From: a virus
Taxonomy: Duplodnaviria; Heunggongvirae; Uroviricota; Caudoviricetes
DNA length: 16,063 bases
Virus record (IMG/VR): IMGVR_UViG_2609459830_000022
Reading direction: 5' to 3' (one strand)
Shown here: positions 1-14,520 of the stretch, piece after piece
How the letters are laid out: the number at the start of each line of letters is the position of its first letter
Numbering within the stretch: position 1 is the stretch's first letter
Notes under the pieces: model-generated
The model's database searches: none
Told to the model about the DNA's origin: nothing
The model's input: the letters and a program-made list of their open reading frames with translations, nothing else
Program-made: the position numbers and the translations under genes

Positions 1-1461
1 ATGAAAAAATTACTGCGTCTTTTTTTCCCGCTCTCACTGCGGGTACGTTTTCTGTTGGCAACGGCTGCGGTAGTACTGGTGCTTTCGCTTGCCTACGGAA
101 TGGTCGCGCTGATCGGTTATAGCGTCAGTTTCGATAAAACTACGTTTCGGCTGTTACGTGGCGAGAGCAATCTGTTCTATACCCTTGCGAAGTGGGAAAA
201 CAATAAGTTGCATGTCGAGTTACCCGAAAATATCGACAAGCAAAGCCCCACCATGACGCTAATTTATGATGAGAACGGGCAGCTTTTATGGGCGCAACGT
301 GACGTGCCCTGGCTGATGAAGATGATCCAGCCTGACTGGCTGAAATCGAATGGTTTTCATGAAATTGAAGCGGATGTTAACGATACCAGCCTCTTGCTGA
401 GTGGAGATCATTCGATACAGCAACAGTTGCAGGAAGTGCGGGAAGATGATGACGACGCGGAGATGACCCACTCGGTGGCAGTAAACGTCTACCCGGCAAC
501 ATCGCGGATGCCAAAATTAACCATTGTGGTGGTGGATACCATTCCGGTGGAGCTAAAAAGTTCCTATATGGTCTGGAGCTGGTTTATCTATGTGCTCTCA
601 GCCAATCTGCTGTTAGTGATCCCGCTGCTGTGGGTCGCCGCCTGGTGGAGTTTACGCCCCATCGAAGCCCTGGCAAAAGAAGTCCGCGAACTGGAAGAAC
701 ATAACCGCGAATTGCTCAATCCAGCCACAACGCGAGAACTGACCAGTCTGGTACGAAACCTGAACCGATTGTTAAAAAGTGAACGCGAACGTTACGACAA
801 ATACCGTACGACGCTCACCGACCTGACCCATAGTCTGAAAACGCCACTGGCGGTGCTGCAAAGTACGCTGCGTTCTCTGCGTAGTGAAAAGATGAGCGTC
901 AGTGATGCTGAGCCGGTAATGCTGGAGCAAATCAGCCGCATTTCACAGCAAATTGGCTACTACCTGCATCGTGCCAGTATGCGCGGCGGGACATTGCTCA
1001 GCCGCGAGCTGCATCCGGTCGCCCCACTGCTGGACAATCTCACCTCAGCGCTGAACAAAGTGTATCAACGCAAAGGGGTCAATATCTCTCTCGATATTTC
1101 GCCAGAGATCAGCTTTGTCGGTGAGCAGAACGATTTTGTCGAGGTGATGGGCAACGTGCTGGATAATGCCTGTAAATATTGCCTCGAGTTTGTCGAAATT
1201 TCTGCAAGGCAAACCGACGAGCATCTCTATATTGTGGTCGAGGATGATGGCCCCGGTATTCCATTAAGCAAGCGAGAGGTCATTTTCGACCGTGGTCAAC
1301 GGGTTGATACTTTACGCCCTGGGCAAGGTGTAGGGCTGGCGGTAGCCCGCGAAATCACCGAGCAATATGAGGGTAAAATCGTCGCCGGAGAGAGCATGCT
1401 GGGCGGTGCGCGGATGGAGGTGATTTTTGGTCGCCAGCATTCTGCGCCGAAAGATGAATAA
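1..1461 (+). CDS. phoQ: Sensor histidine kinase PhoQ (complete, 486 aa)
   Basis: Full-length ORF with ATG at 1 and TAA at 1459-1461. Two N-terminal hydrophobic segments flank a periplasmic domain with the acidic patch EDDDDAE, followed by HAMP, the H-box ([10 protein letters not shown]) and a C-terminal ATPase domain (DDGPGIP, GQGVGL). The sequence is recognised as enterobacterial PhoQ. Confidence 0.97.
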
Positions 1462-1583
1462 ATATGTCCTTTTATCACCACAGCAAGGCAACCCATTGAT
1501 TTAATTAAACAATCCACACTGCAAAAAGTGCTAAAAACAGCAGATTGACTACACTATTAACTACACCGTTCGGTGCACTGTAT

Positions 1584-1611
1584 GAAACAACGTGGAACAA
1601 ATAGACACAAG
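1584..1611. repeat. Phased TTGTT/AACAA repeat cluster, site A (3 units at 10-bp spacing, AACAA on plus strand)
   Basis: gaaacaacgtggaacaaatagacacaag. The reverse complement reads TTGTGTCTAT TTGTTCCACG TTGTTTC and is near-identical to site D (14521..14543). Confidence 0.6.
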
Positions 1612-1951
1612 AAATATACAGGCGGGTAATCTTTCCAGGGGGAAGCGCACCAATTCATGAGGGGCGTTAATGTCGATATGGGGATCCCCATAACGGGGCT
1701 ACCGGATTTTTTTTCCGGTTAACTGTTAATCAGGCTGGTGGGTTTTACCTGTTCGGTAGGTGTTATGATTATCGTAATACCTTTCCCCCAGTGGGGTAAA
1801 AGCTCCAACCGTAACGATGTTCGTTGTGGTTGCCTTGATGGTCTGCGTGGTCATTATGACCATTCAGAATATGAAGGGTGACGCTTCCGACTTCCTCAAA
1901 TTGAGGTTTCCGAAAATATCAGCGGGTTAGCGATTAATCTGACCATTAATT

Positions 1952-1974
1952 AAACTACGAAAATTTCGTAGTTT
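1952..1974. repeat. Perfect 11-bp inverted repeat separated by 1 nt (aaactacgaaa a tttcgtagttt)
   Basis: Read directly from the sequence. It lies about 90 nt downstream of the last minus-strand late gene (stop at 2063) and has no flanking T-tract, so it is not a canonical intrinsic terminator. Confidence 0.5.
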
Positions 1975-2062
1975 GTGAATATATTCCGGCCTTCTGGTTA
2001 ACAGTCCTCAGATGTGAGGGATGTAGCCAGCGCAATTTTGCGTTATCGGGAATATCAGCAAG

Positions 2063-2344
2063 TTACCGCCGTAACCGCTCCGGCTTCTTCCAGTGGTACG
2101 TGATTTTCTCCTTCTCCCGATACAGTTCAACGCGGCGATTGTAGGCCAGCATTTCCAGAACGCGGATCCGTATGTCGCGCATATCCGCATCATTAAGCTG
2201 GATACCATCACGGCGCATCACCTCAGCAACAACACGCGCATAATTTTCGGCTGTCACGCTGTCCGGCTGCGTGGTCTGTTCGTCAGCCTGCTGGCTGATT
2301 CCAGAGACGCGGCGGATTAATCGCAGTATTTCGGCTTCTGTCAT
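2063..2344 (-). CDS. Hypothetical protein (93 aa), last gene of the packaging operon
   Basis: ATG at 2344 preceded by GAGGT Shine-Dalgarno at 7 nt spacing, 14 nt downstream of the TerL stop. No recognisable motif. Confidence 0.5.
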   Translation of the reverse strand: MTEAEILRLIRRVSGISQQADEQTTQPDSVTAENYARVVAEVMRRDGIQLNDADMRDIRIRVLEMLAYNRRVELYREKEKITYHWKKPERLRR

Positions 2345-2357
2345 GCTGCTGACCTCA

Positions 2358-4019
2358 TTACACCCCGCTAAATTCTTCCAGTTTCTGGCGGTGGCTGTCG
2401 CTTATATCAAAAGCAAAATCCTCATGCTCTGCCTGGAATGTACCAAACGCCATCAGCGCCGCTACGCTCGGGTCTATCTTGTTCGGTGATTTTTTCTTGT
2501 TCGGCTTGATATTGGCGTTCGCGTCACTCTGCATCACGACGTTACTCATCGACCAGGACAACACCGGATCGCCACGATGCACAATCACCCTGCGGTTAAC
2601 AAAAACTTCGAACGATTTCGCCGCCGGACTGAATCTGAGGTAGGTTTGCGGGAACGGCTCCACCTCAAAACCTGCCCCCTGTAATTGCGTTCTGAGATGC
2701 GTGGCGTTCCACGTATCAAAGCCCACCAGCCTGATATTAAATTTCTCCGCGTCCTGCATGATGTCATCTCTGATCCGGTCGTAATCAATGCAGTCGCCAG
2801 GCGTTGTGCGTATCCAGCCTGCTTTAGCCCACTGACGATAGATGGCGCGGTTTTTATTGGCGGGGTTCTGTAGCTGAAATTCCGGCAGATAGTGACGGGA
2901 AACCAGCATAATGGTTTTACCGACCGGAAAGGCATAGCACACGCTGGAAATATCGCTGGTTGATGATAAGTCCAGCCCCGCGTAACACTCCTGGCCGTGT
3001 AAATCTTCCTCCGTGAACGTTCCGGCACACTCAGCCCATGCGCCGTTACCCATCCACGGGGTAGTCCCCTGACACCAGATATTAAATCGCTTTGTCATCA
3101 TCTCCACCCACTGCGACGGAATACCCCGCGCTTTCTGGATGGTTGAGGCCAGTTTTTCACGATCCACGGAAACATCGATGTTAGGGTTAGCCTTTATCCA
3201 CATCGCCGGATCATCAACCTCGTTTTCGTCGTCCAGCTCGTAAATCAGTACAAAAATTGAATCGTTGACCTCTTCGCCGTCCAGGATCTGGCAGCAATAA
3301 TCATAGTGCTGCTTACAGGCTGAAACGACGTTACTGCCCGATGTAGTAATGGCAAATAACAGCCCTTCGGGACGTGCGCCCATCCCCAGCTCAAGCGCGG
3401 AATAAACGCCGTTATCGGGGTGTAGGTGGTATTCGTCCACGATGGAAAGGCTGGGGTTTGTTCCCTCGATGGTTGCCGCTTTTGCTGCCAGCGGCTTTAA
3501 CAGGCTGTTGCTTTTCGGGTGCATCACCTTGTGGGCCTGAATATTCACCCGCCTGCGTAACGGTCGGGATAAAAGGCACATCTGACGCGCATCATCAAAA
3601 ACGATCCGCGCCTGGTCACGGCTCACCGCTGCGGTGTAAATATCCTGCTGCCCGTTCTCCATAATCAGAAACCAGTTAGCCAGAATCGCGGCGGTCGTGG
3701 ATTTCGCATTTTTGCGCGGCACTTCGATAAAGGCGCTCGTATATTTGCGCCGTCCGGTGGCCTTAACCTTAAAGCCGAGGATGCACGCAAAGGCGAACTG
3801 CTGCCACGGCTCCAGCTCAATGGGGCTACCGCGCATTGCGCCTTTTACGTGCGGGCACACCCTGGAAAAGGCAATAAACCGCTCCACAACCTCACGATCG
3901 AACGTGTAAAGGGGGCTTTCAAGGTCCGAAAAGTACCGTTTAACGGCCTGTTTCAGCCGTTTACAGGCCGGAATTTTGCCCGTTTTTACGTCTTCTGCGT
4001 ACTTATTCCAGGCGGTCAA
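2358..4019 (-). CDS. Terminase large subunit (HK97/Terminase_1 type), 553 aa
   Basis: Length and overall pattern typical of phage TerL with an N-terminal ATPase region and C-terminal nuclease region. The start is TTG at 4019 preceded by a GAGGA Shine-Dalgarno, overlapping the TerS 3-prime end by 17 nt. Confidence 0.88.
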   Translation of the reverse strand: MTAWNKYAEDVKTGKIPACKRLKQAVKRYFSDLESPLYTFDREVVERFIAFSRVCPHVKGAMRGSPIELEPWQQFAFACILGFKVKATGRRKYTSAFIEVPRKNAKSTTAAILANWFLIMENGQQDIYTAAVSRDQARIVFDDARQMCLLSRPLRRRVNIQAHKVMHPKSNSLLKPLAAKAATIEGTNPSLSIVDEYHLHPDNGVYSALELGMGARPEGLLFAITTSGSNVVSACKQHYDYCCQILDGEEVNDSIFVLIYELDDENEVDDPAMWIKANPNIDVSVDREKLASTIQKARGIPSQWVEMMTKRFNIWCQGTTPWMGNGAWAECAGTFTEEDLHGQECYAGLDLSSTSDISSVCYAFPVGKTIMLVSRHYLPEFQLQNPANKNRAIYRQWAKAGWIRTTPGDCIDYDRIRDDIMQDAEKFNIRLVGFDTWNATHLRTQLQGAGFEVEPFPQTYLRFSPAAKSFEVFVNRRVIVHRGDPVLSWSMSNVVMQSDANANIKPNKKKSPNKIDPSVAALMAFGTFQAEHEDFAFDISDSHRQKLEEFSGV

Positions 4020-5720: not shown

Positions 5721-6928
5721 TCCGGTTTTTCTCCCTCGCTGATTTTTACTTCCTGTTTCCATGCCTGGCTGAACTCATCACCACCATCACGCGGAGACAA
5801 CCCTTCTCGTTCGCGGGCTTCGTTCGGGCACATAACACCGGATTTGATGCCTCGCTCATAGGTGGCAAAGCGTTCGCCAGGAGTGGCCCGTAACAGGTCC
5901 GCGCTGTCAAACTCCACCTGATACCGGATACCAGGTACAGGTGAGGCCACCAGCAGGGCGTTTTTTATCTGCTGCTCAAAGTTCGCCAGCCACGGGCGCA
6001 TCGTCATGGTGAGAAATGCGCGGCTTGCCTCGCTGAAATTGCTGTAGGTGCTGTTGCTGTATTCCTGCAAAAAAATCGGCGAGACGTTGAACATTCGGGC
6101 GATGTCTTCAATGGTGAAGCGACGGGAGGCCAGCCATTCAGCATCCTGATTACTCATGCCCAGCTGCTGATAGCTCATACCCCCTTCAAGGATGGGCGTT
6201 TTTCCGGCGTTTCTGGCCCCTTTATAGCGTTCCAGTGCGGCTAATGCCTGTTTGCCTTTCACGCCGTCCAGCCATTCGCCTGACGTGATAACCCCTGCCG
6301 CCATCATGCCATCACGCATCACGCTCGCGCCGTGGCGTTGTTGGGCCAGCCCAAGCCCCAGCGATTCGCGGCAGATGGTTACAGGTGAGCGCCCCATAAA
6401 GCCGTCATCCGTGGAGTAACGAAGGTGAAGTACTTCCCACGGTAAATAGTTGCGGGTGTTTCCGGTGTAGGCGTCAGTGATGCAATAGCGCCAGTTATGC
6501 TCACCTGTCTGCTCCACGTTCACCGACTGCGGCGGGTAAGGATGCAAAGCGATCGGAAAACCATCACGCCCCCACTGAATCACCGCATAAGCATTACCGT
6601 TTAACAGGCAGTGGCGGATCATCATTCGCTTAAACTGGTAGGGGGTCTGCCATGCGTTCGGGCGCTCGTTGAGGATGTGATCGACCGGATGAGAATCAAG
6701 CCACTCGCGGGCCTCCTTCCCCTTCTCATTGCGTACCAGGTACAGGTAACACGGCATGGTAGCCACCGCCTCAGAGATGACCGTGACGGCGTTCATGACG
6801 GCGGGCAGTGATTCCGCTGTCCCCGATGATACGTACTCACCCGCCCCCGTGTTCGATGTGCCAGCCAGCGCCATAAACTCATCAAGCGTCATGCTGCGCT
6901 GCTCTTTTTTTCTTCTGAAAGGCCACAT
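5717..6928 (-). CDS. Portal protein, HK97 family (403 aa)
   Basis: Size and sequence pattern of HK97-type portal. ATG at 6928 preceded by a GGGGGTG Shine-Dalgarno, 1 nt after the protease stop. Confidence 0.9.
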   Translation of the reverse strand: MWPFRRKKEQRSMTLDEFMALAGTSNTGAGEYVSSGTAESLPAVMNAVTVISEAVATMPCYLYLVRNEKGKEAREWLDSHPVDHILNERPNAWQTPYQFKRMMIRHCLLNGNAYAVIQWGRDGFPIALHPYPPQSVNVEQTGEHNWRYCITDAYTGNTRNYLPWEVLHLRYSTDDGFMGRSPVTICRESLGLGLAQQRHGASVMRDGMMAAGVITSGEWLDGVKGKQALAALERYKGARNAGKTPILEGGMSYQQLGMSNQDAEWLASRRFTIEDIARMFNVSPIFLQEYSNSTYSNFSEASRAFLTMTMRPWLANFEQQIKNALLVASPVPGIRYQVEFDSADLLRATPGERFATYERGIKSGVMCPNEAREREGLSPRDGGDEFSQAWKQEVKISEGEKPE

Positions 6929-9259: not shown

Positions 9260-9269
9260 CGTCCCCCCC

Positions 9270-10253: not shown

Positions 10254-10447
10254 CTCTCACTTTTTCGCCTCACTTTTTCAAGCGTCTCACTTCGTCGCAG
10301 CTGGGATTTTCGGTTTTTCTATGTGTGTGTTTCATAAGTATTTTTTTACCCCTCACTTTTGAGGATGTATACAGGTCGAAAAGTGAGGGAGAGCAGGCTA
10401 ATTTTGGCCCTCTTTCTATCCACCTCGCTTTTGCTCCTCACTTTTAT
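10254..10447. repeat. Iteron cluster, putative replication origin (7 copies of CTCACTTTT, one inverted, flanking an A/T-rich core)
   Basis: Copies at about 10256, 10269, 10286 (imperfect), 10352, 10379 (inverted), 10424 (imperfect) and 10437. The A/T-rich stretch is at 10300-10350. The cluster sits immediately 3-prime of the primase-helicase gene (stop 10444-10446). Confidence 0.7.
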
Positions 10448-11844
10448 AGCGGTGCTACATCATCCCCATCGATACGAATAACCCCATCTTTTTCCAGCTT
10501 GTACAGCCAGCGCCGGAAGTTTTTCATTTCATACCCCAGCTTTTTCATGTCATCACGTAACAGCGGGATCGTGCACTTGTCGCCGTTCTGTGTGCGTGAA
10601 CGGATGCACCCCCATAGCGCGGTATGGTTTTCCGTCTTGTTCCCTGCCTCCTCGATGCGCTCCAGTTCAACAGGAGGGCGCGGATCATCCACCACCACCA
10701 GCGACGTGATTAATTCACCGTCAGCGTCGGTAAAAAGCTCCACCACGCGTAAGTCATATGCGGCTTCTTTGAGTTCCTCCGCGTCCTTCATTTTGGTGCA
10801 TGAGATAACCAGCGCTTCGCTTCCTGCGTCCTCCCTGCGTATCCGGTATTCAGCATCCAGCGAAGCACGAAATGCACTGGAACCGCGCGCGCCTTTCGTC
10901 TCATCCTTGCCGGAATGGTGAACCACCAGCACCGTGGCCCCTGTGCGTCGTTTCAGTTCGTCACAACCACGGATAAACGCCCCCATATCACGGGAATCAT
11001 TTTCATCATTCCCACCAAAGCAACGCGCCAGCGTATCCAGAATAATCATGCGTACAGGTTTACCCGTTTCCCGCTCCACCTGACGGGCAGCGATAACCAT
11101 TTCATCAACATCAAGCGGGGCAGCCGGAAAGATGGGGCGGTTTACCAGATACAGATTTTTCACCTGCTCATCGTGCACAACCTCCCAGGCTTTTACACGA
11201 CGCGGAACACCTATACCGCCTTCACCGACCACATAGAGAACCGCACCATGTGCAACCCTGCGGCCTCCCCACTGGCGACCAGTGGCAACATGGCACGCCC
11301 ACGATCCGGCAAGGAATGATTTATAGGACCCGCTAGCCCCGTATATGCTGCATAGCGATACCGCCGGAATAATCCCCTTAACCACGTAATCCAGTTGCGT
11401 GTCGTATCCGGTAGATCCAACGCTCATCGGTAGCGTGGTTTTTCGCTGGTGGTTTTTTTCTTCCGCCGGCTCTTTCCCACGCACCCGTTCCAGGTATTCG
11501 CGCCAGTTCTCCCGCATATGGCTGTGCATCCCTTCGGGGTAATAATTCGCATCAGTTACACCCGCCGCCGCCAGCTTGTGCGCAATGGCATTAATATTTG
11601 ATGGCCTGATGTGGCCTGCCTTGTACAGCCGGACACAATAGCGCCCCTCGTCGATGATTCTCAGGTCTGCCAGTTCATCCAGTTGATCATCAGCCAGCAC
11701 AACGGGAGGCACATTATCGCCAGCCAGTCGCCCGTCCTGTTCCTGCCACTGTTTCGCATGTGCCCAGGCATCACTACCCGCAAAAATAATGACTTCGGTC
11801 ATCTTGTCGTAAGGCTGTTTTTTTAAGTTCGGTGCGCTTTTCAT
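10444..11844 (-). CDS. Replication initiator: Toprim-like N-domain + RecA-like (RepA/AAA_25-type) ATPase + C-terminal winged-helix; PICI pri-rep-like
   Basis: P-loop-like IYGASGSYKSF, RepA-like segment ILDTLARCFGGNDENDSRDMGAFIRGCDELKRRTGATVLVVHHSGKD, N-terminal VIIFAGSDAWAHA Toprim-like segment. Followed by the iterons. Confidence 0.78.
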   Translation of the reverse strand: MKSAPNLKKQPYDKMTEVIIFAGSDAWAHAKQWQEQDGRLAGDNVPPVVLADDQLDELADLRIIDEGRYCVRLYKAGHIRPSNINAIAHKLAAAGVTDANYYPEGMHSHMRENWREYLERVRGKEPAEEKNHQRKTTLPMSVGSTGYDTQLDYVVKGIIPAVSLCSIYGASGSYKSFLAGSWACHVATGRQWGGRRVAHGAVLYVVGEGGIGVPRRVKAWEVVHDEQVKNLYLVNRPIFPAAPLDVDEMVIAARQVERETGKPVRMIILDTLARCFGGNDENDSRDMGAFIRGCDELKRRTGATVLVVHHSGKDETKGARGSSAFRASLDAEYRIRREDAGSEALVISCTKMKDAEELKEAAYDLRVVELFTDADGELITSLVVVDDPRPPVELERIEEAGNKTENHTALWGCIRSRTQNGDKCTIPLLRDDMKKLGYEMKNFRRWLYKLEKDGVIRIDGDDVAPL

Positions 11845-12140
11845 TTCTTGCCCCTGAATCCGTTAACCATGGTTTTCAGCTTCTGGATGTTTGCCCGTGC
11901 CCTGGCGTTGCTGGTGGGCACGTTATGCGGCGCGGTCTGTACCAGAGAAAAATCACGCCGGAACTGATAAACAGGCATCACGCAATCATATTCGTAACCT
12001 TCACGGCGGTAAGTTACGCACCGTCCCGCCACGCCCTTAATCATTACCGTGCCGCCGTACTGGTCGCGGTAAATATCACCGCGCATAAATTTAGGGTGAG
12101 TGTTGCCACTGGCAGTTAAGCCAGAATATTTAAGTTTCAT
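11841..12140 (-). CDS. Hypothetical protein (99 aa), translationally coupled to the primase-helicase
   Basis: ATG at 12140; its stop overlaps the primase start (ATGA). Confidence 0.5.
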   Translation of the reverse strand: MKLKYSGLTASGNTHPKFMRGDIYRDQYGGTVMIKGVAGRCVTYRREGYEYDCVMPVYQFRRDFSLVQTAPHNVPTSNARARANIQKLKTMVNGFRGKK

Positions 12141-12145
12141 TATTT

Positions 12146-12379
12146 TTATTCTCCGGTGTGCTGTTCGTTATATCTGTCGTGCAATGTCTCTATTTCCTGC
12201 AACTCATTTATTACAGGCTCAAGAAGCGTTATTAATGATGTAATAATCCGCGTTTTTTTTGCATTACGTTCATTATCGCCAAAGGATTCAAGGCACATCC
12301 GCAATATTTCGTACATACCTTCAGCGTAAGCAAGGGCACTAAATGCGCGGTCTATTGTTTCAAGATAAATATCACGCAT
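12146..12379 (-). CDS. Small hypothetical protein (77 aa), member of a tandem paralog trio
   Basis: ATG at 12379 with GGGGA Shine-Dalgarno. Shares the MRD start and an EI-R ... I--LI pattern with the next gene. Confidence 0.45.
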   Translation of the reverse strand: MRDIYLETIDRAFSALAYAEGMYEILRMCLESFGDNERNAKKTRIITSLITLLEPVINELQEIETLHDRYNEQHTGE

Positions 12380-12380
12380 A

Positions 12381-12602
12381 TTAATCCCCGTCCGTTGTTT
12401 TTCTTAAAACAGCTTCTGTCACGAAATCAGCATAGTTAGCGGCAATATCAAGAATATTTAGCCCTGTACCTCTGTGCTCATCAGTGCAAAGAAAGAAAAA
12501 AGCCACCCGCATAATTTCAGATATTGACGAAAGCGCATCAGCCGCATCATCAGGAACGCCGGAAAATTCTTGTTTCAGGGAATTAAAACGATCATCACGC
12601 AT
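12381..12602 (-). CDS. Small hypothetical protein (73 aa), paralog of the 77-aa and 80-aa neighbours
   Basis: ATG at 12602 immediately preceded by a G9 homopolymer on the coding strand (C9 at 12605-12613 on plus). Confidence 0.45.
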   Translation of the reverse strand: MRDDRFNSLKQEFSGVPDDAADALSSISEIMRVAFFFLCTDEHRGTGLNILDIAANYADFVTEAVLRKTTDGD

Positions 12603-12817
12603 AACCCCCCCCCATTTTCACAATCAGCAACAAGAATATTTTTAGCGTCATTCAGCGACCGCGTTGCGATGTATCGGATACATTCCAGGGCGAACGTTGT
12701 CCGGTCTTTCTGTTCTTCTCCCTGCGCAAGCTCTGCCGTGCATTCAATATCAATAAGCGCGTGCATCAGCGTAGTGAGCGCGGCGGCGGCTGCGTCCGGT
12801 GTGGTTTTATTGCACAT
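12575..12817 (-). CDS. Small hypothetical protein (80 aa from ATG 12817), third paralog
   Basis: ATG at 12817 preceded by a strong AGGAGG Shine-Dalgarno. Segment TPDAAAAALTTL resembles VPDDAADALSSI of the 73-aa gene. Its C-terminus (GGG) reads through the G9 tract. Confidence 0.4.
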   Translation of the reverse strand: MCNKTTPDAAAAALTTLMHALIDIECTAELAQGEEQKDRTTFALECIRYIATRSLNDAKNILVADCENGGGLCVMIVLIP

Positions 12818-12980
12818 GGCACACCTCCTGACGAATACGGGCGACAAAAATCAGATGTGCGTGCGGCAGCTGTGCACGTGCTTCGCGCTCAGTGGCAGCG
12901 GTAACGGTGAATATTGCAATACTGTCTGTCAGGCACTGCATAAAGCGCCAGACAAAATAAGGGCGTGTGAATACAGCCAT
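12807..12980 (-). CDS. Icd-like small protein (host cell-division-inhibitor-like), copy B, 57 aa
   Basis: ATG at 12980 with TAGGAGCC Shine-Dalgarno. Motif FVWRF ... TAATEREARAQLP ... LIFVARIRQ is shared with copy A. Family assignment is from memory of the conserved motif. Confidence 0.45.
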   Translation of the reverse strand: MAVFTRPYFVWRFMQCLTDSIAIFTVTAATEREARAQLPHAHLIFVARIRQEVCHVQ

Positions 12981-13266
12981 GTGAAAGGCTCCTACAGTAA
13001 TTTTAAGGAGTCTCGCTACTACGCTGTCAAACATGGTGGCGAGACGTAACAGGGTTGACAGACTGGCACTGTAGAGACCAGCGAGCGCAAAGGCTCCCCC
13101 GTTACGCCCCGCCATAATGCGGGTATGGGTAGGTTTACGGACACAAAAAAACCGCATATCGGAATGTAAGCGGCTGTCCGCTACAGTATTCAGGCTGTCA
13201 AACCCGGTCGCCATGTGGGCGACGGGGGAAGCATACAGCCCCGTGATAATTTTTTGCAAGCGGTTT

Positions 13267-13464
13267 TTACGCATGATGTGACCCCTGACGAATACGGGCG
13301 GCAAATACAGCAACACAACCTGACGGGCAACGGCTACGCGCTTCGCGTTCCGTCCAGGCGGTTACGTGGATGATTTGAGATTCTCCGGCACTCAGTGCCA
13401 GAAAACGCCACACAAAGGCCGTTTGTGTGTGTACAAGGTGTGGTATATGATTTACGGCAACCAT
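13267..13464 (-). CDS. Icd-like small protein, copy A, 65 aa
   Basis: ATG at 13464 with TAGGAGCC Shine-Dalgarno. Motif FVWRF ... TAWTEREARSRCP ... AVFAARIRQ. Confidence 0.5.
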   Translation of the reverse strand: MVAVNHIPHLVHTQTAFVWRFLALSAGESQIIHVTAWTEREARSRCPSGCVAVFAARIRQGSHHA

Positions 13465-13537
13465 AACGGCTCCTAGTTTACGTTGTTGGTTAGAAGCCCT
13501 GCGAGTGGTAATGACACTTGCGGGGCTTTGCTTTTTT
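13458..13537 (+). ncRNA. Candidate small cis-antisense RNA overlapping the start and Shine-Dalgarno of Icd-like copy A
   Basis: Plus-strand promoter-like TTGTGT (13423-13428), 17-nt spacer, TATGAT (13446-13451). Plus-strand-specific terminator at 13496-13537. No plus-strand ORF lies in between. Confidence 0.3.
13496..13537 (+). terminator. Rho-independent terminator, plus-strand specific
   Basis: 12-bp stem gccctgcgagtg / cacttgcggggc (two G-U wobbles on the plus RNA, which are C-A and U-C mismatches on the minus RNA), 7-nt loop, then TTTGCTTTTTT. Confidence 0.6.
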
Positions 13538-13553
13538 AAGTGCTCTTGTGTTA

Positions 13554-13600
13554 AGGTGACCACCTAACAATGGAAAGGCTAATTCAATAGGTGACCACTT
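13554..13600. promoter_or_regulatory. Two operator-like palindromes AGGTGACCACCT (13554-13565) and AGGTGACCACTT (13589-13600) in the divergent control region
   Basis: Inverted-repeat arms AGGTG/CACCT with centres 35 bp apart. The second overlaps the Shine-Dalgarno and TTG start of the RHH gene. A TTGACA hexamer on the minus strand (13605-13600) lies between them. Confidence 0.5.
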
Positions 13601-13790
13601 GTCAACAATCAAACGCGATAAAAGCCCTAAAGGGGACGGGCAATCCCCACAATTCAGAATGCGAATTTCTCCAGAGCTAAAAGAGCAATTCGACAAAGAA
13701 GCACAGAGCGACGGCATAAGCCTAGCCAACTGGCTTAAAGAGTTGGGGCGCACTGAACTAAAGCGGCGCGGCATAGAACCCAAAGGATAA
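13599..13790 (+). CDS. Arc/Mnt-like ribbon-helix-helix DNA-binding protein (63 aa, TTG start)
   Basis: SPQFRMRISPELKEQFDKEAQSDGISLANWLKELG matches the beta-strand / helix A / helix B pattern of P22 Arc (PQFNLRWPREVLDLVRKVAEENGRSVNSEIYQRV). Start must be upstream of the PQF strand; TTG at 13599 has AGGTGA 4 nt upstream. Confidence 0.55.
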   Translation: MSTIKRDKSPKGDGQSPQFRMRISPELKEQFDKEAQSDGISLANWLKELGRTELKRRGIEPKG

Positions 13791-14479: not shown

Positions 14480-14520
14480 TATTGCCCCCCCTTTCGTTTC
14501 TTAAAGAGTCATCAGGTGTC

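What the first reader, a model, noticed from the sequence alone, without database searches (positions are those of the whole stretch)
12146..12817. Array of three divergent paralogous small genes with a G9 homopolymer at an ORF junction
Three adjacent ORFs (80, 73 and 77 aa) share local patterns (MRD starts; PDAAAAALTTL versus PDDAADALSSI; EI-R ... I--LI), indicating serial duplication and divergence, which is typical of fast-evolving accessory or anti-defence loci. A G9 tract at 12605-12613 lies inside the 3-prime end of the 80-aa ORF and directly before the ATG of the 73-aa ORF. A single extra G, or a -1 ribosomal or transcriptional slip, would fuse the two reading frames (ENGGG-V-MRDDRF ...). 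Similar G7 tracts serve as Shine-Dalgarno sequences for alpA and the PerC-like gene, so the tract may simply be a ribosome-binding site, but the frame relationship is notable.
Basis: partly seen in the sequence, partly recalled or inferred. Interest (0 to 1): 0.5.

Follow-up and report, generated by a model that had tools for sequence, protein, structure and literature searches.

The report
Slippery G-run splits a satellite gene
Of three small genes of unknown function in an E. coli phage satellite, the first two are joined or separated by a run of G bases whose length changes between strains and which probably also serves as the ribosome-binding site for the second; the three genes show no detectable relationship to one another.

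Summary
The three minus-strand ORFs (80, 73, 77 aa) and the G9 run (12605-12613) are real. One extra G does fuse ORF1 and ORF2.

- **Context.** The locus lies in the early/replication operon of a capsid-forming PICI satellite: C4 RNA, Icd-like, ORF1-3, DUF4222, RepA-like helicase.
- **The fusion exists.** The exact 145-aa fusion product is found in E. coli, and fused 144-154-aa forms are common.
- **The run varies.** Complete E. coli genomes with at least one exact copy: G7 in about 361, G8 about 182, G9 about 170, G10 in 23. Interrupted forms also occur. Length differs on near-identical backgrounds.
- **Ancestral state.** Distant relatives have separate, translationally coupled genes without a G-run. 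Each of ORF1 and ORF2 also occurs without the other.
- **Ribosome-binding role.** The run always lies just upstream of the ORF2 ATG, even behind a different upstream gene. Its predicted anti-SD pairing (-11.1 kcal/mol) is strong.
- **Paralogy.** Not supported by BLASTP or profile comparison. The shared "MRD" starts come from a reused ATGCGTGA stop/start overlap.

Best reading: a mutational hotspot in a G-run Shine-Dalgarno at a coupled gene junction. The window's G9 state makes two separate proteins. Protein function is unknown. True phase variation or programmed frameshifting is not excluded.

The parts
12575..12817 (-). ORF1, 80 aa (MCNKTTPDAAAAAL...ADCENGGG + out-of-frame tail LCVMIVLIP). 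It corresponds to the N-terminal half of the fused 145-aa protein found in relatives. A canonical AGGAGG Shine-Dalgarno lies upstream.
   Evidence: phrog_5146; phrog_2512 positions 1-77; identical 80-aa protein on 70 contigs
12605..12613 (-). G9 homopolymer. It encodes the Gly-Gly-Gly end of ORF1 and is the predicted Shine-Dalgarno for ORF2. It is a slippage hotspot whose length sets the ORF1/ORF2 frame relation. Runs of 7 or 10 bases give the fusion. Runs of 8 or 11 bases stop ORF1 in ATGCGTGA. Runs of 9 or 12 bases give the window type.
12381..12602 (-). ORF2, 73 aa (MRDDRFNSLKQEFSGVPDDAADAL...). It corresponds to the C-terminal half of the fused protein. Its own ATG is kept in the E. coli loci read and in the two other Escherichia/Shigella representatives.
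   Evidence: phrog_24341; phrog_2512 positions 78-146; identical protein on 367 contigs
12146..12379 (-). ORF3, 77 aa. Predicted with high confidence as a two-helix hairpin. It is an independent small gene, 1 nt after the ORF2 stop.
   Evidence: phrog_2196; pLDDT 92.6
12528..12628 (-). Conserved junction block, from the last ~5 codons of ORF1 to about codon 25 of ORF2. It is almost invariant at the nucleotide level, while both flanks are mosaic. It is the likely recombination linker between ORF1 N-modules and ORF2 C-modules.
12594..12602 (-). ATGCGTGAT start cassette of ORF2. In relatives with an 8-base tract, the ORF1 stop is the TGA inside it.
12371..12379 (-). ATGCGTGAT start cassette of ORF3. 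In relatives with a 77-aa ORF2, the ORF2 stop is the TGA inside it.
11841..12140 (-). DUF4222 gene, next in the same operon (context).
10444..11844 (-). RepA-like helicase (AAA_25), the satellite replication gene (context).
12807..12980 (-). Icd-like ORF immediately upstream. It overlaps the ORF1 start by 11 nt (context).
13032..13119 (-). C4-type antisense RNA (P1 immI / P4 CI-like immunity) upstream of the operon (context).

Best explanation
ORF1, ORF2 and ORF3 are three different small helical-protein genes. They sit in the variable accessory stretch of the early/replication operon of a capsid-forming PICI satellite of E. coli, in the order C4 RNA, Icd-like, ORF1, ORF2, ORF3, DUF4222, RepA-like helicase.

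The genes are chained by overlapping or abutting stops and starts, which indicates translational coupling (inferred).

The G-run does two jobs. It codes the glycine-rich end of ORF1. It is also the Shine-Dalgarno sequence for ORF2 (inferred from predicted pairing energy and conserved position).

Because it is a long homopolymer, it gains and loses G's by replication slippage far more often than the flanks acquire substitutions. That the length changes is shown; that the cause is replication slippage is inferred.

Its length sets the product:
- 7 or 10 bases gives one fused ORF1-ORF2 polypeptide with a Gly linker.
- 8 or 11 bases gives two proteins, with ORF1 stopping in the ATGCGTGA overlap. 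This reading-frame relation is the one seen in distant relatives.
- 9 or 12 bases gives two proteins, with ORF1 carrying a 9-residue out-of-frame tail. This is the window's state.

ORF2 keeps its own ATG and a strong Shine-Dalgarno in every state. Both halves should therefore be made whatever the length, and all three frames would be tolerated (inferred). The frequent natural fusion suggests that the two proteins act together, probably as a complex (inferred, Rosetta-stone logic). Their biochemical function is unknown.
For: - **Fused form exists.** phrog_2512 (154 positions) matches ORF1 at 1-77 and ORF2 at 78-146. The exact conceptual fusion is P0001. Many fused 144-151-aa proteins sit on hundreds of contigs. 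Their junctions read ENGGGVMRDD or ENGGVMRDD.
- **Run lengths, IMG/VR.** In 67 loci (65 IMG/VR, two RefSeq relatives and the window): G7 x16, G8 x24, G9 x14, G10 x3, G11 x1, G5TG2 x4, G4TG3 x2, G4AG7 x3.
- **Run lengths, complete genomes.** About 361 genomes carry G7, 182 G8, 170 G9 and 23 G10.
- **Change on the same background.** O26 strains EH2252 (G8) and E2865 (G9) show 0 differences in 2200 nt of flank. O111:H8 strains with G10 and G9 show 2 differences. Groups with at least 99% identical flanks hold G7, G8 and G9.
- **Heritable, not random error.** Locus pairs with identical 800-nt flanks never differ in the run (0 of 10). Pairs with 1-2 flank differences differ in 7 of 8.
- **Ancestral separation.** Distant ORF1-like proteins end ...GHA or ...HHA, and distant ORF2-like proteins start exactly at the Met.
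  - L093 has ORF1-like followed directly by ORF3-like through an ATGCATAA overlap.
  - L094 has ORF2-like behind another gene, with a canonical AGGAGG and an ATGA overlap.
- **Shine-Dalgarno role.**
  - Predicted anti-SD duplex is -11.1 to -11.3 kcal/mol for G7-G12. ORF1's AGGAGG gives -11.6, and five of the other six ATG starts tested give -5.7 to -7.8.
  - A G6, G7 or G9 run also precedes the ORF2 ATG where a different 128-aa gene lies upstream.
  - Another G7 run in the window lies just upstream of the next gene's apparent start, downstream of SSB (9263-9269). One more, at 14485-14491, was not resolved.
Against: - Nothing shows directly that both proteins are made or that they interact.
- The AlphaFold model of the fusion is poor (pLDDT 55.7), so no interface could be examined.
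- PGAP calls one G9 allele a 'frameshifted' pseudogene.
- Two assemblies of strain 97-3250 differ only by G10 versus G9. Some of the reported length variation may therefore be sequencing error, or switching may be faster than the comparative data suggest.
- A pure G-run is kept although GGAGG or synonymous Gly codons would serve as well. This could mean selection for mutability rather than a neutral hotspot.
Confidence: 0.72

Rival explanations
1. True contingency (phase-variable) locus. The G-run is maintained by selection for mutability. Switching between the fused and split forms (or the tailed ORF1) changes the activity of the module, for example helper-phage specificity or an interference function. 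This would give satellite populations a bet-hedging switch.
For: - All three frames are common on the same backgrounds.
- The run stays uninterrupted in most lineages, although Gly codons could break it.
- One strain sequenced twice gives G10 and G9.
- The locus is in a mosaic accessory region.
Against: - ORF2 keeps its own start and Shine-Dalgarno, so no state is obviously OFF.
- Locus pairs with identical flanks have identical runs (0 of 10 differ).
- 27 closely related, mostly O26, genomes gave identical full-length matches consistent with G9. Switching therefore looks slow compared with classical contingency loci.
- The whole junction block lacks substitutions. Persistence of a pure run may therefore only reflect recent common ancestry.
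- Interrupted, 'frozen' alleles exist.
Confidence: 0.15
2. Programmed recoding. In the G9 allele, a fraction of ribosomes (-1 slip on G GGG GGG) or of RNA polymerases (insertion of one G) produces the fused protein alongside the separate ones, at a set ratio.
For: - Perfect tRNA re-pairing is possible on the run, and the -1 frame gives exactly the natural fusion sequence.
- The run is itself SD-like. From general knowledge, SD-like sequences can stimulate frameshifting in E. coli, as in dnaX.
Against: - Programmed sites keep a fixed slippery sequence and frame relation across homologues. Here the length varies through all three frames.
- No significant downstream structure: z = -1.12.
- ORF2 has its own initiation signals.
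- Distant relatives have no run at all.
- The E. coli RNA polymerase slippage documented in the papers read concerns A/T runs (PMC6260861; PMC1088944 abstract).
Confidence: 0.07
3. Artefact or decay. The window's G9 is either a homopolymer sequencing error for G10 or a recent inactivating frameshift in a single 145-aa gene (pseudogene), with no biological role for the split state.
For: - PGAP marks a G9 allele as 'frameshifted'.
- The two assemblies of strain 97-3250 disagree.
- The exact G10 version of this allele exists (P0001).
Against: - The window's 80-aa ORF1 is found identically on 70 contigs, against 5 for its G10 fusion.
- 27 closely related genomes, including the reference O26:H11 11368 (NC_013361.1), gave identical full-length matches consistent with G9. 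The run was read directly in only one of them, E2865.
- Split states are at least as frequent as fused ones outside O157.
- Interrupted split alleles (G5TG2, G4TG3) cannot be homopolymer miscalls.
- Separate genes are the state in distant relatives.
Confidence: 0.08
4. One reading: three paralogues produced by serial tandem duplication and rapid divergence.
For: - Similar sizes (about 70-77 aa) and an all-helical prediction. ORF1 (H9-31, H37-67) and ORF3 (H2-33, H37-75) are both two-helix hairpins.
- A short PD-A--A[LI] motif is conserved in both the ORF1 and ORF2 families (E 0.03).
- Identical ATGCGTGAT starts.
Against: - No BLASTP hit.
- hhalign probabilities are at most 1.7%.
- A two-helix hairpin is the simplest fold and matches unrelated hairpins equally well.
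- The shared start is explained by the stop/start overlap cassette.
- The modules occur independently in relatives.
Confidence: 0.1

Closest known systems
Homopolymeric-tract (simple-sequence-repeat) phase-variable genes. Examples: poly-G loci of Neisseria meningitidis (PMC5084427), Bordetella pertussis tracts (PMC1891110) and the Bifidobacterium breve pilus G-tract switch (PMC9187656).
   Same: An uninterrupted G-run in coding sequence. Its length differs among close relatives and shifts the downstream reading frame. Replication slippage is the presumed cause.
   Different: - No state is a clear OFF, because the downstream half has its own ATG and the run itself is its Shine-Dalgarno. The outcome is fused versus split, not on versus off.
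- Comparative data suggest slower switching than in classical contingency loci.
- The host is E. coli and the element is a phage satellite.
Translationally coupled overlapping genes (ATGA or ATGnnTGA stop/start overlaps with the Shine-Dalgarno inside the upstream gene)
   Same: - Relatives with an 8-base tract, and distant relatives, have ORF1 stopping inside the ATGCGTGA, ATGCATAA or ATGA of the next gene.
- The Shine-Dalgarno lies in the upstream coding sequence.
   Different: The Shine-Dalgarno is a 7-11-base homopolymer rather than GGAGG. This makes the junction mutationally unstable and able to fuse the two genes.
Programmed -1 frameshift and transcriptional slippage sites, such as dnaX, IS elements and phage tail chaperones (reviewed in PMC5009743)
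   Same: A slippery homopolymer at the boundary of two frames. The shifted frame yields a longer fusion product.
   Different: - Length and frame relation are not conserved.
- There is no stimulatory structure.
- The downstream frame initiates independently.
- The fusion is mostly achieved at the DNA level.
Gene fusion/fission pairs ('Rosetta stone' proteins)
   Same: Two polypeptides that are separate in some genomes are one chain in others. This implies a functional link.
   Different: Here fusion and fission recur many times within one species by single-base indels, rather than being rare ancient events.
PICI / capsid-forming PICI satellites, prototype EcCIEDL933 (bioRxiv 10.1101/2022.09.08.507074)
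   Same: The window carries int, a RepA-like replication helicase, TerS/TerL, portal, protease and major capsid genes but no tail genes. The same small-gene block lies between Icd-like and rep in O157:H7 and CFT073.
   Different: The published work read here does not describe or test these small ORFs or the G-run.

Membership tests
Simple-sequence-repeat contingency (phase-variable) locus | Uninterrupted mononucleotide run of about 7 or more bases in or next to coding sequence | tested here: met
   G9 at 12605-12613. Relatives carry G7 to G11.
Simple-sequence-repeat contingency (phase-variable) locus | Run length polymorphic among closely related strains | tested here: met
   G8 versus G9 with 0 of 2200 flank differences, and G10 versus G9 with 2 of 2200. 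Haplotype groups hold G7, G8 and G9.
Simple-sequence-repeat contingency (phase-variable) locus | A length change switches expression of a gene product on and off | tested here: not met
   ORF2 keeps its own ATG and a strong Shine-Dalgarno at every length. The change is fused versus split, not on versus off (sequence inference; expression was not measured).
Simple-sequence-repeat contingency (phase-variable) locus | High-frequency reversible switching within a clonal population | tested here: inconclusive
   Locus pairs with identical flanks share the same run (0 of 10 differ). 27 closely related, mostly O26, genomes gave identical matches consistent with one length. However, two assemblies of strain 97-3250 differ. 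Deep sequencing is needed.
Programmed ribosomal frameshift / transcriptional slippage site | Slippery sequence and frame relation conserved across homologues | tested here: not met
   All three frames are common. Distant relatives have no run.
Programmed ribosomal frameshift / transcriptional slippage site | Stimulatory RNA structure downstream | tested here: not met
   The fold of 161 nt around the site gives z = -1.12, and 29 of 200 shuffles fold as well.
Programmed ribosomal frameshift / transcriptional slippage site | Both the unshifted and the shifted products are detected from one allele | not testable with these tools
   Needs mass spectrometry or Western blot, plus RNA sequencing.
Tandem paralogous gene array | Significant pairwise sequence or profile similarity | tested here: not met
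   BLASTP finds none. hhalign E values are 0.03, 0.19 and 0.58, with probability at most 1.7%.
Tandem paralogous gene array | The same fold | tested here: inconclusive
   ORF3 is a confident two-helix hairpin. The ORF1 half is a hairpin at pLDDT of about 70 and the ORF2 half is below 50. The hairpin fold is generic.
Translationally coupled overlapping genes | Stop of the upstream gene overlaps or abuts the start of the downstream gene | tested here: met
   In the window: Icd-like/ORF1 overlap 11 nt, ORF1/ORF2 overlap 28 nt, ORF2/ORF3 have a 1-nt gap, DUF4222/RepA overlap 4 nt. Relatives have the 8-nt ATGCGTGA overlap.
Translationally coupled overlapping genes | Shine-Dalgarno complementarity upstream of the downstream start | tested here: met
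   Predicted anti-SD duplex of -11.1 kcal/mol. This is a prediction only.
Capsid-forming PICI satellite | Integrase, AlpA-type regulator and replication module, plus its own capsid and packaging genes without tail genes | tested here: met
   int, RepA-like helicase, TerL, TerS, portal, protease and capsid by Pfam, with no tail genes in the window. alpA was not checked with a profile in the window. A helix-turn-helix regulator is annotated at the equivalent place in relatives.

The most novel reading that the evidence does not exclude
The G-run would be a genuine contingency switch in an E. coli phage satellite, maintained for its mutability. It would toggle a two-part protein between fused, split and tailed forms with different activities, for example towards different helper phages or host defences. 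Transcriptional or ribosomal slippage might blur the states further. This would be a simple-repeat phase-variation system in E. coli, a species generally thought to rely on other switching mechanisms (general knowledge). It would also be of a 'fuse/split' rather than 'on/off' type.
Probability: 0.15. Interest if true: 0.7.

Novelty: new variant of a known kind. Interest (0 to 1): 0.45.

Why it matters
- **Prevalence.** The locus is present in about 16% of complete E. coli genomes (889 of 5426). These include O157:H7, O26, O111, CFT073 and Nissle 1917.
- **Annotation.** It is annotated inconsistently, as one gene, two genes or a 'frameshifted' pseudogene. Recognising the run as a natural length polymorphism at a coupled junction corrects this.
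- **Assembly quality.** Homopolymer-length differences between assemblies at this site should not be taken at face value.
- **Function.** The recurrent natural fusion is a strong hint that the two unknown satellite proteins work together. That narrows the experiments needed to find what they do in PICI biology.
- **If switching is selected.** This would be an unusual fuse/split form of phase variation in a phage satellite.

Tried and rejected
- **Family and structure searches.** Pfam, NCBIfam and PADLOC gave nothing for the three ORFs, and PHROGs gave only families of unknown function. The PDB sequence search with a profile found no hit. A tblastn of the fusion against GenBank phages found no match.
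- **AlphaFold and Foldseek.** The fusion model had pLDDT 55.7, too poor to examine a domain interface, and its Foldseek matches were meaningless. The ORF3 model was confident, but Foldseek against PDB and BFVD gave only generic helical hairpins at E > 0.2. These included a non-significant match to T4 Vs.4, which I did not take as evidence.
- **RNA structure and signals.** Folding around the run gave z = -1.12. The promoter/terminator scan showed nothing relevant near the junction.
- **hhalign.** Run in global and local modes, with shallow and then deeper profiles. No homology was found among the three ORFs.
- **Same-strain pair for E. coli '042'.** The two records turned out to be different strains, so the pair was discarded.
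- **The search for related loci.** The 7-sequence alignment failed for lack of a conserved stretch. A 3-sequence alignment found only Shigella flexneri and Escherichia ruysiae among species representatives.
- **Literature.** Searches found no description of this run or of these ORFs.
Full report
**1. What is in the sequence**

The three ORFs are on the minus strand:
- ORF1 is 12575..12817, 80 aa from the ATG at 12817. All homologues start MCNK there, and a canonical AGGAGG lies upstream.
- ORF2 is 12381..12602, 73 aa.
- ORF3 is 12146..12379, 77 aa.

The + strand has C9 at 12605-12613, which is G9 on the coding strand. It sits inside the last codons of ORF1 and 2 nt before the ORF2 ATG. ORF1 runs 28 nt into ORF2 and ends ...ENGGGLCVMIVLIP.

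A lone G9 in 16 kb is not remarkable: 22 of 200 shuffles contain one.

**2. Context**

The window is a capsid-forming PICI-type satellite beside phoQ. Pfam finds TerL, TerS, portal, prohead protease, major capsid, SSB and integrase.

The finding lies in the operon downstream of a C4-type antisense RNA (13032-13119) and its a1/b1 targets (13187-13236). On the minus strand the gene order is Icd-like, ORF1, ORF2, ORF3, DUF4222, RepA-like helicase.

The same block is annotated in many E. coli chromosomes as 'hypothetical proteins' between 'Icd-like' and 'DUF4222' / 'helicase RepA' or 'primase'. The cf-PICI and PICI papers I read do not describe these ORFs.

**3. The fusion is real**

- PHROGs family phrog_2512 (154 positions) matches ORF1 at positions 1-77 and ORF2 at 78-146.
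- A search with the conceptual +1G fusion returned the identical 145-aa protein (P0001). It also returned many fused 144-151-aa proteins, some seen on 130-260 contigs each.
- Their junctions read ENGGGVMRDD or ENGGVMRDD.
- Split forms are equally abundant. The window's 80-aa ORF1 is on 70 contigs, a 73-aa ORF1 form on 330, and the 73-aa ORF2 on 367.

**4. The run length varies**

In 67 loci (65 IMG/VR, two RefSeq relatives and the window), the sequence between ...GATTGTGAAAAT and TTATGCGTGATGA was as follows:

| Tract | Loci |
|---|---|
| G7 | 16 |
| G8 | 24 |
| G9 | 14 |
| G10 | 3 |
| G11 | 1 |
| G5TG2 | 4 |
| G4TG3 | 2 |
| G4AG7 | 3 |

All three frames are therefore common: 19 loci are fused, in 31 ORF1 stops in ATGCGTGA, and 17 are the window type.

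In 5426 complete E. coli genomes, 889 carry the junction. Exact-length queries gave about 361 genomes with G7, 182 with G8, 170 with G9 and 23 with G10. I corrected these counts for about 236 partial matches. Some genomes hold two or three copies in different states.
- O157:H7 and O145 have G7 (fused, 154 aa).
- CFT073 and Nissle 1917 have 8 bases.
- O26 genomes have G9.

**5. The changes are recurrent and heritable**

- O26 strains EH2252 (G8) and E2865 (G9) have no difference in 2200 nt of flank. O111:H8 strains 8234 (G10) and 7-16 37A (G9) differ at 2 of 2200 positions.
- In those two O111:H8 strains, PGAP annotates the G10 allele as one intact gene and the G9 allele as a 'frameshifted' pseudogene.
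- Groups of IMG/VR loci with at least 99% identical flanks contain G7, G8 and G9 together.
- Among unselected locus pairs, identical 800-nt flanks always go with identical runs (0 of 10 differ). With only 1-2 flank differences, 7 of 8 pairs differ in the run.

The run therefore changes at roughly the rate at which about 800 flanking bases together acquire a substitution. It is not randomly miscalled.

One caveat applies. Two assemblies of strain 97-3250 differ only by G10 versus G9 over 2360 nt. This is either a sequencing error or change between laboratory stocks.

**6. Which state is ancestral**

A profile search of 1.84 billion representative proteins found only 51 clusters. The family appears confined to Escherichia and Shigella among species representatives.

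The divergent members are separate proteins:
- ORF1-like proteins end ...GHA, ...HHA or ...DHA and have no G-run.
- ORF2-like proteins begin exactly at the Met.

Reading the DNA confirms this:
- L093 has ORF1-like joined by an ATGCATAA overlap directly to an ORF3-like gene. ORF2 is absent.
- L094 has ORF2-like behind an unrelated 91-aa gene, with a canonical AGGAGG and an ATGA overlap.
- L088 and 13 IMG/VR loci have a 128-aa gene in front of ORF2.

ORF1, ORF2 and ORF3 are thus independent modules. The fusion and the window's G9 form are both derived from a coupled two-gene junction.

**7. What the run does**

Where the 128-aa gene precedes ORF2, a G6, G7 or G9 run again lies 5 nt before the ORF2 ATG. 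The run therefore belongs with the ORF2 start, not with ORF1.

Predicted pairing with the 16S anti-SD is -11.1 to -11.3 kcal/mol for G7-G12. That equals ORF1's AGGAGG (-11.6) and is stronger than five of the other six ATG starts tested (-5.7 to -7.8; the G7 run downstream of SSB gave -11.7). Another G7 run in the window lies just upstream of the next gene's apparent start, downstream of SSB (9263-9269). One more, at 14485-14491, was not resolved.

I conclude that the run is the ORF2 Shine-Dalgarno, embedded in the end of the upstream gene. Because ORF2 keeps its ATG and this Shine-Dalgarno at every length, both halves should be made in every state. This is inferred, not shown.

**8. Paralogy**

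- BLASTP finds no similarity between any pair.
- hhalign with family profiles gives only an 11-column motif between ORF1 and ORF2 (E 0.03, probability 1.7%). It gives nothing for ORF3.
- ORF3 folds confidently as a two-helix hairpin (pLDDT 92.6). The ORF1 half is a hairpin at moderate confidence and the ORF2 half is unreliable. Fold searches return only generic hairpins.
- The 'MRD' starts are explained by the nucleotide cassette ATGCGTGA(T). It is the stop/start overlap at ORF1/ORF2 in relatives with an 8-base tract, and at ORF2/ORF3 in relatives with a 77-aa ORF2.

**9. Mosaicism**

The roughly 100 nt from the last codons of ORF1 to about codon 25 of ORF2 are almost invariant, even at synonymous sites. 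Both flanks fall into several types that occur in many combinations, and every common combination shows several run lengths.

The junction block therefore behaves as a recombination linker between exchangeable modules. Its lack of substitutions can also explain why the pure G-run has not yet been interrupted in most lineages.

**10. Programmed recoding and phase variation**

Programmed frameshifting is unlikely for four reasons:
- The length and the frame relation are not conserved.
- There is no significant downstream structure.
- ORF2 initiates independently.
- Distant relatives lack the run.

Classical on/off phase variation does not fit, because no state removes ORF2. A selected fuse/split switch cannot be excluded, and I rate it at about 0.15.

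**11. Verdict**

The 'three paralogues' reading is not supported.

The feature is a slippage-prone G-run Shine-Dalgarno at a coupled gene junction. It repeatedly fuses and splits two co-functioning satellite genes of unknown function. The searched literature does not describe it. It is a variant of known homopolymer-slippage behaviour rather than a new kind of system.

Noticed in passing
window 13032-13119 (-) and 13187-13236 (-); Icd-like ORFs 12807-12980 and 13267-13563 (-): Rfam C4 antisense RNA (69 bits) with its a1/b1 target element, flanked by two Icd-like ORFs. This is a P1 immI / P4 CI-type RNA immunity cassette inside a capsid-forming PICI.
   Followed up: partly
window 12371-12379, 12594-12602, 6311-6319 (-): ATGCGTGAT occurs three times against 0.17 expected, with 0 of 200 shuffles reaching 3. 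Two copies are the ORF2 and ORF3 starts. The third lies inside the portal gene and is unexplained.
   Followed up: partly
window 9263-9269 and 14485-14491 (-): G7 runs lie directly upstream of apparent gene starts. The one at 9263 gives a predicted anti-SD duplex of -11.7 kcal/mol. I did not check whether these runs also vary in length among strains.
   Followed up: no
L088 2122-2508 and 2409-2420; proteins P0182, P0178: - The 128-aa gene that replaces ORF1 in some relatives contains an internal CTGCGTGATGAT copy.
- Database proteins exist that join this gene to ORF2 at exactly that point (P0182).
- Others join the ORF2 N-half to the ORF3 C-half (P0178).
- This suggests recombination at short shared cassettes.
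   Followed up: partly
L091 (CP074773.1) versus L092 (CP027599.1): Two complete assemblies of E. coli strain 97-3250 are identical over 2360 nt around the locus, except for G10 versus G9. This changes the annotation from one gene to two.
   Followed up: yes
proteins P0055, P0078, P0088 (217-221 aa); L086 791-1003: Some relatives carry a further ~70-aa small ORF (MSQEITLQQAAERAH...) upstream of ORF1. In some gene calls it is fused in frame to ORF1-ORF2, giving a three-module protein. I did not examine that junction.
   Followed up: no
window 13599-13790 (+): A 63-aa ORF on the opposite strand has a weak HicB-family match (E 4.9e-4, below the Pfam cut-off).
   Followed up: no
window 1-1461 (+): A complete phoQ sensor-kinase gene abuts the packaging end of the satellite. 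The element's attachment site and exact ends were not determined.
   Followed up: no
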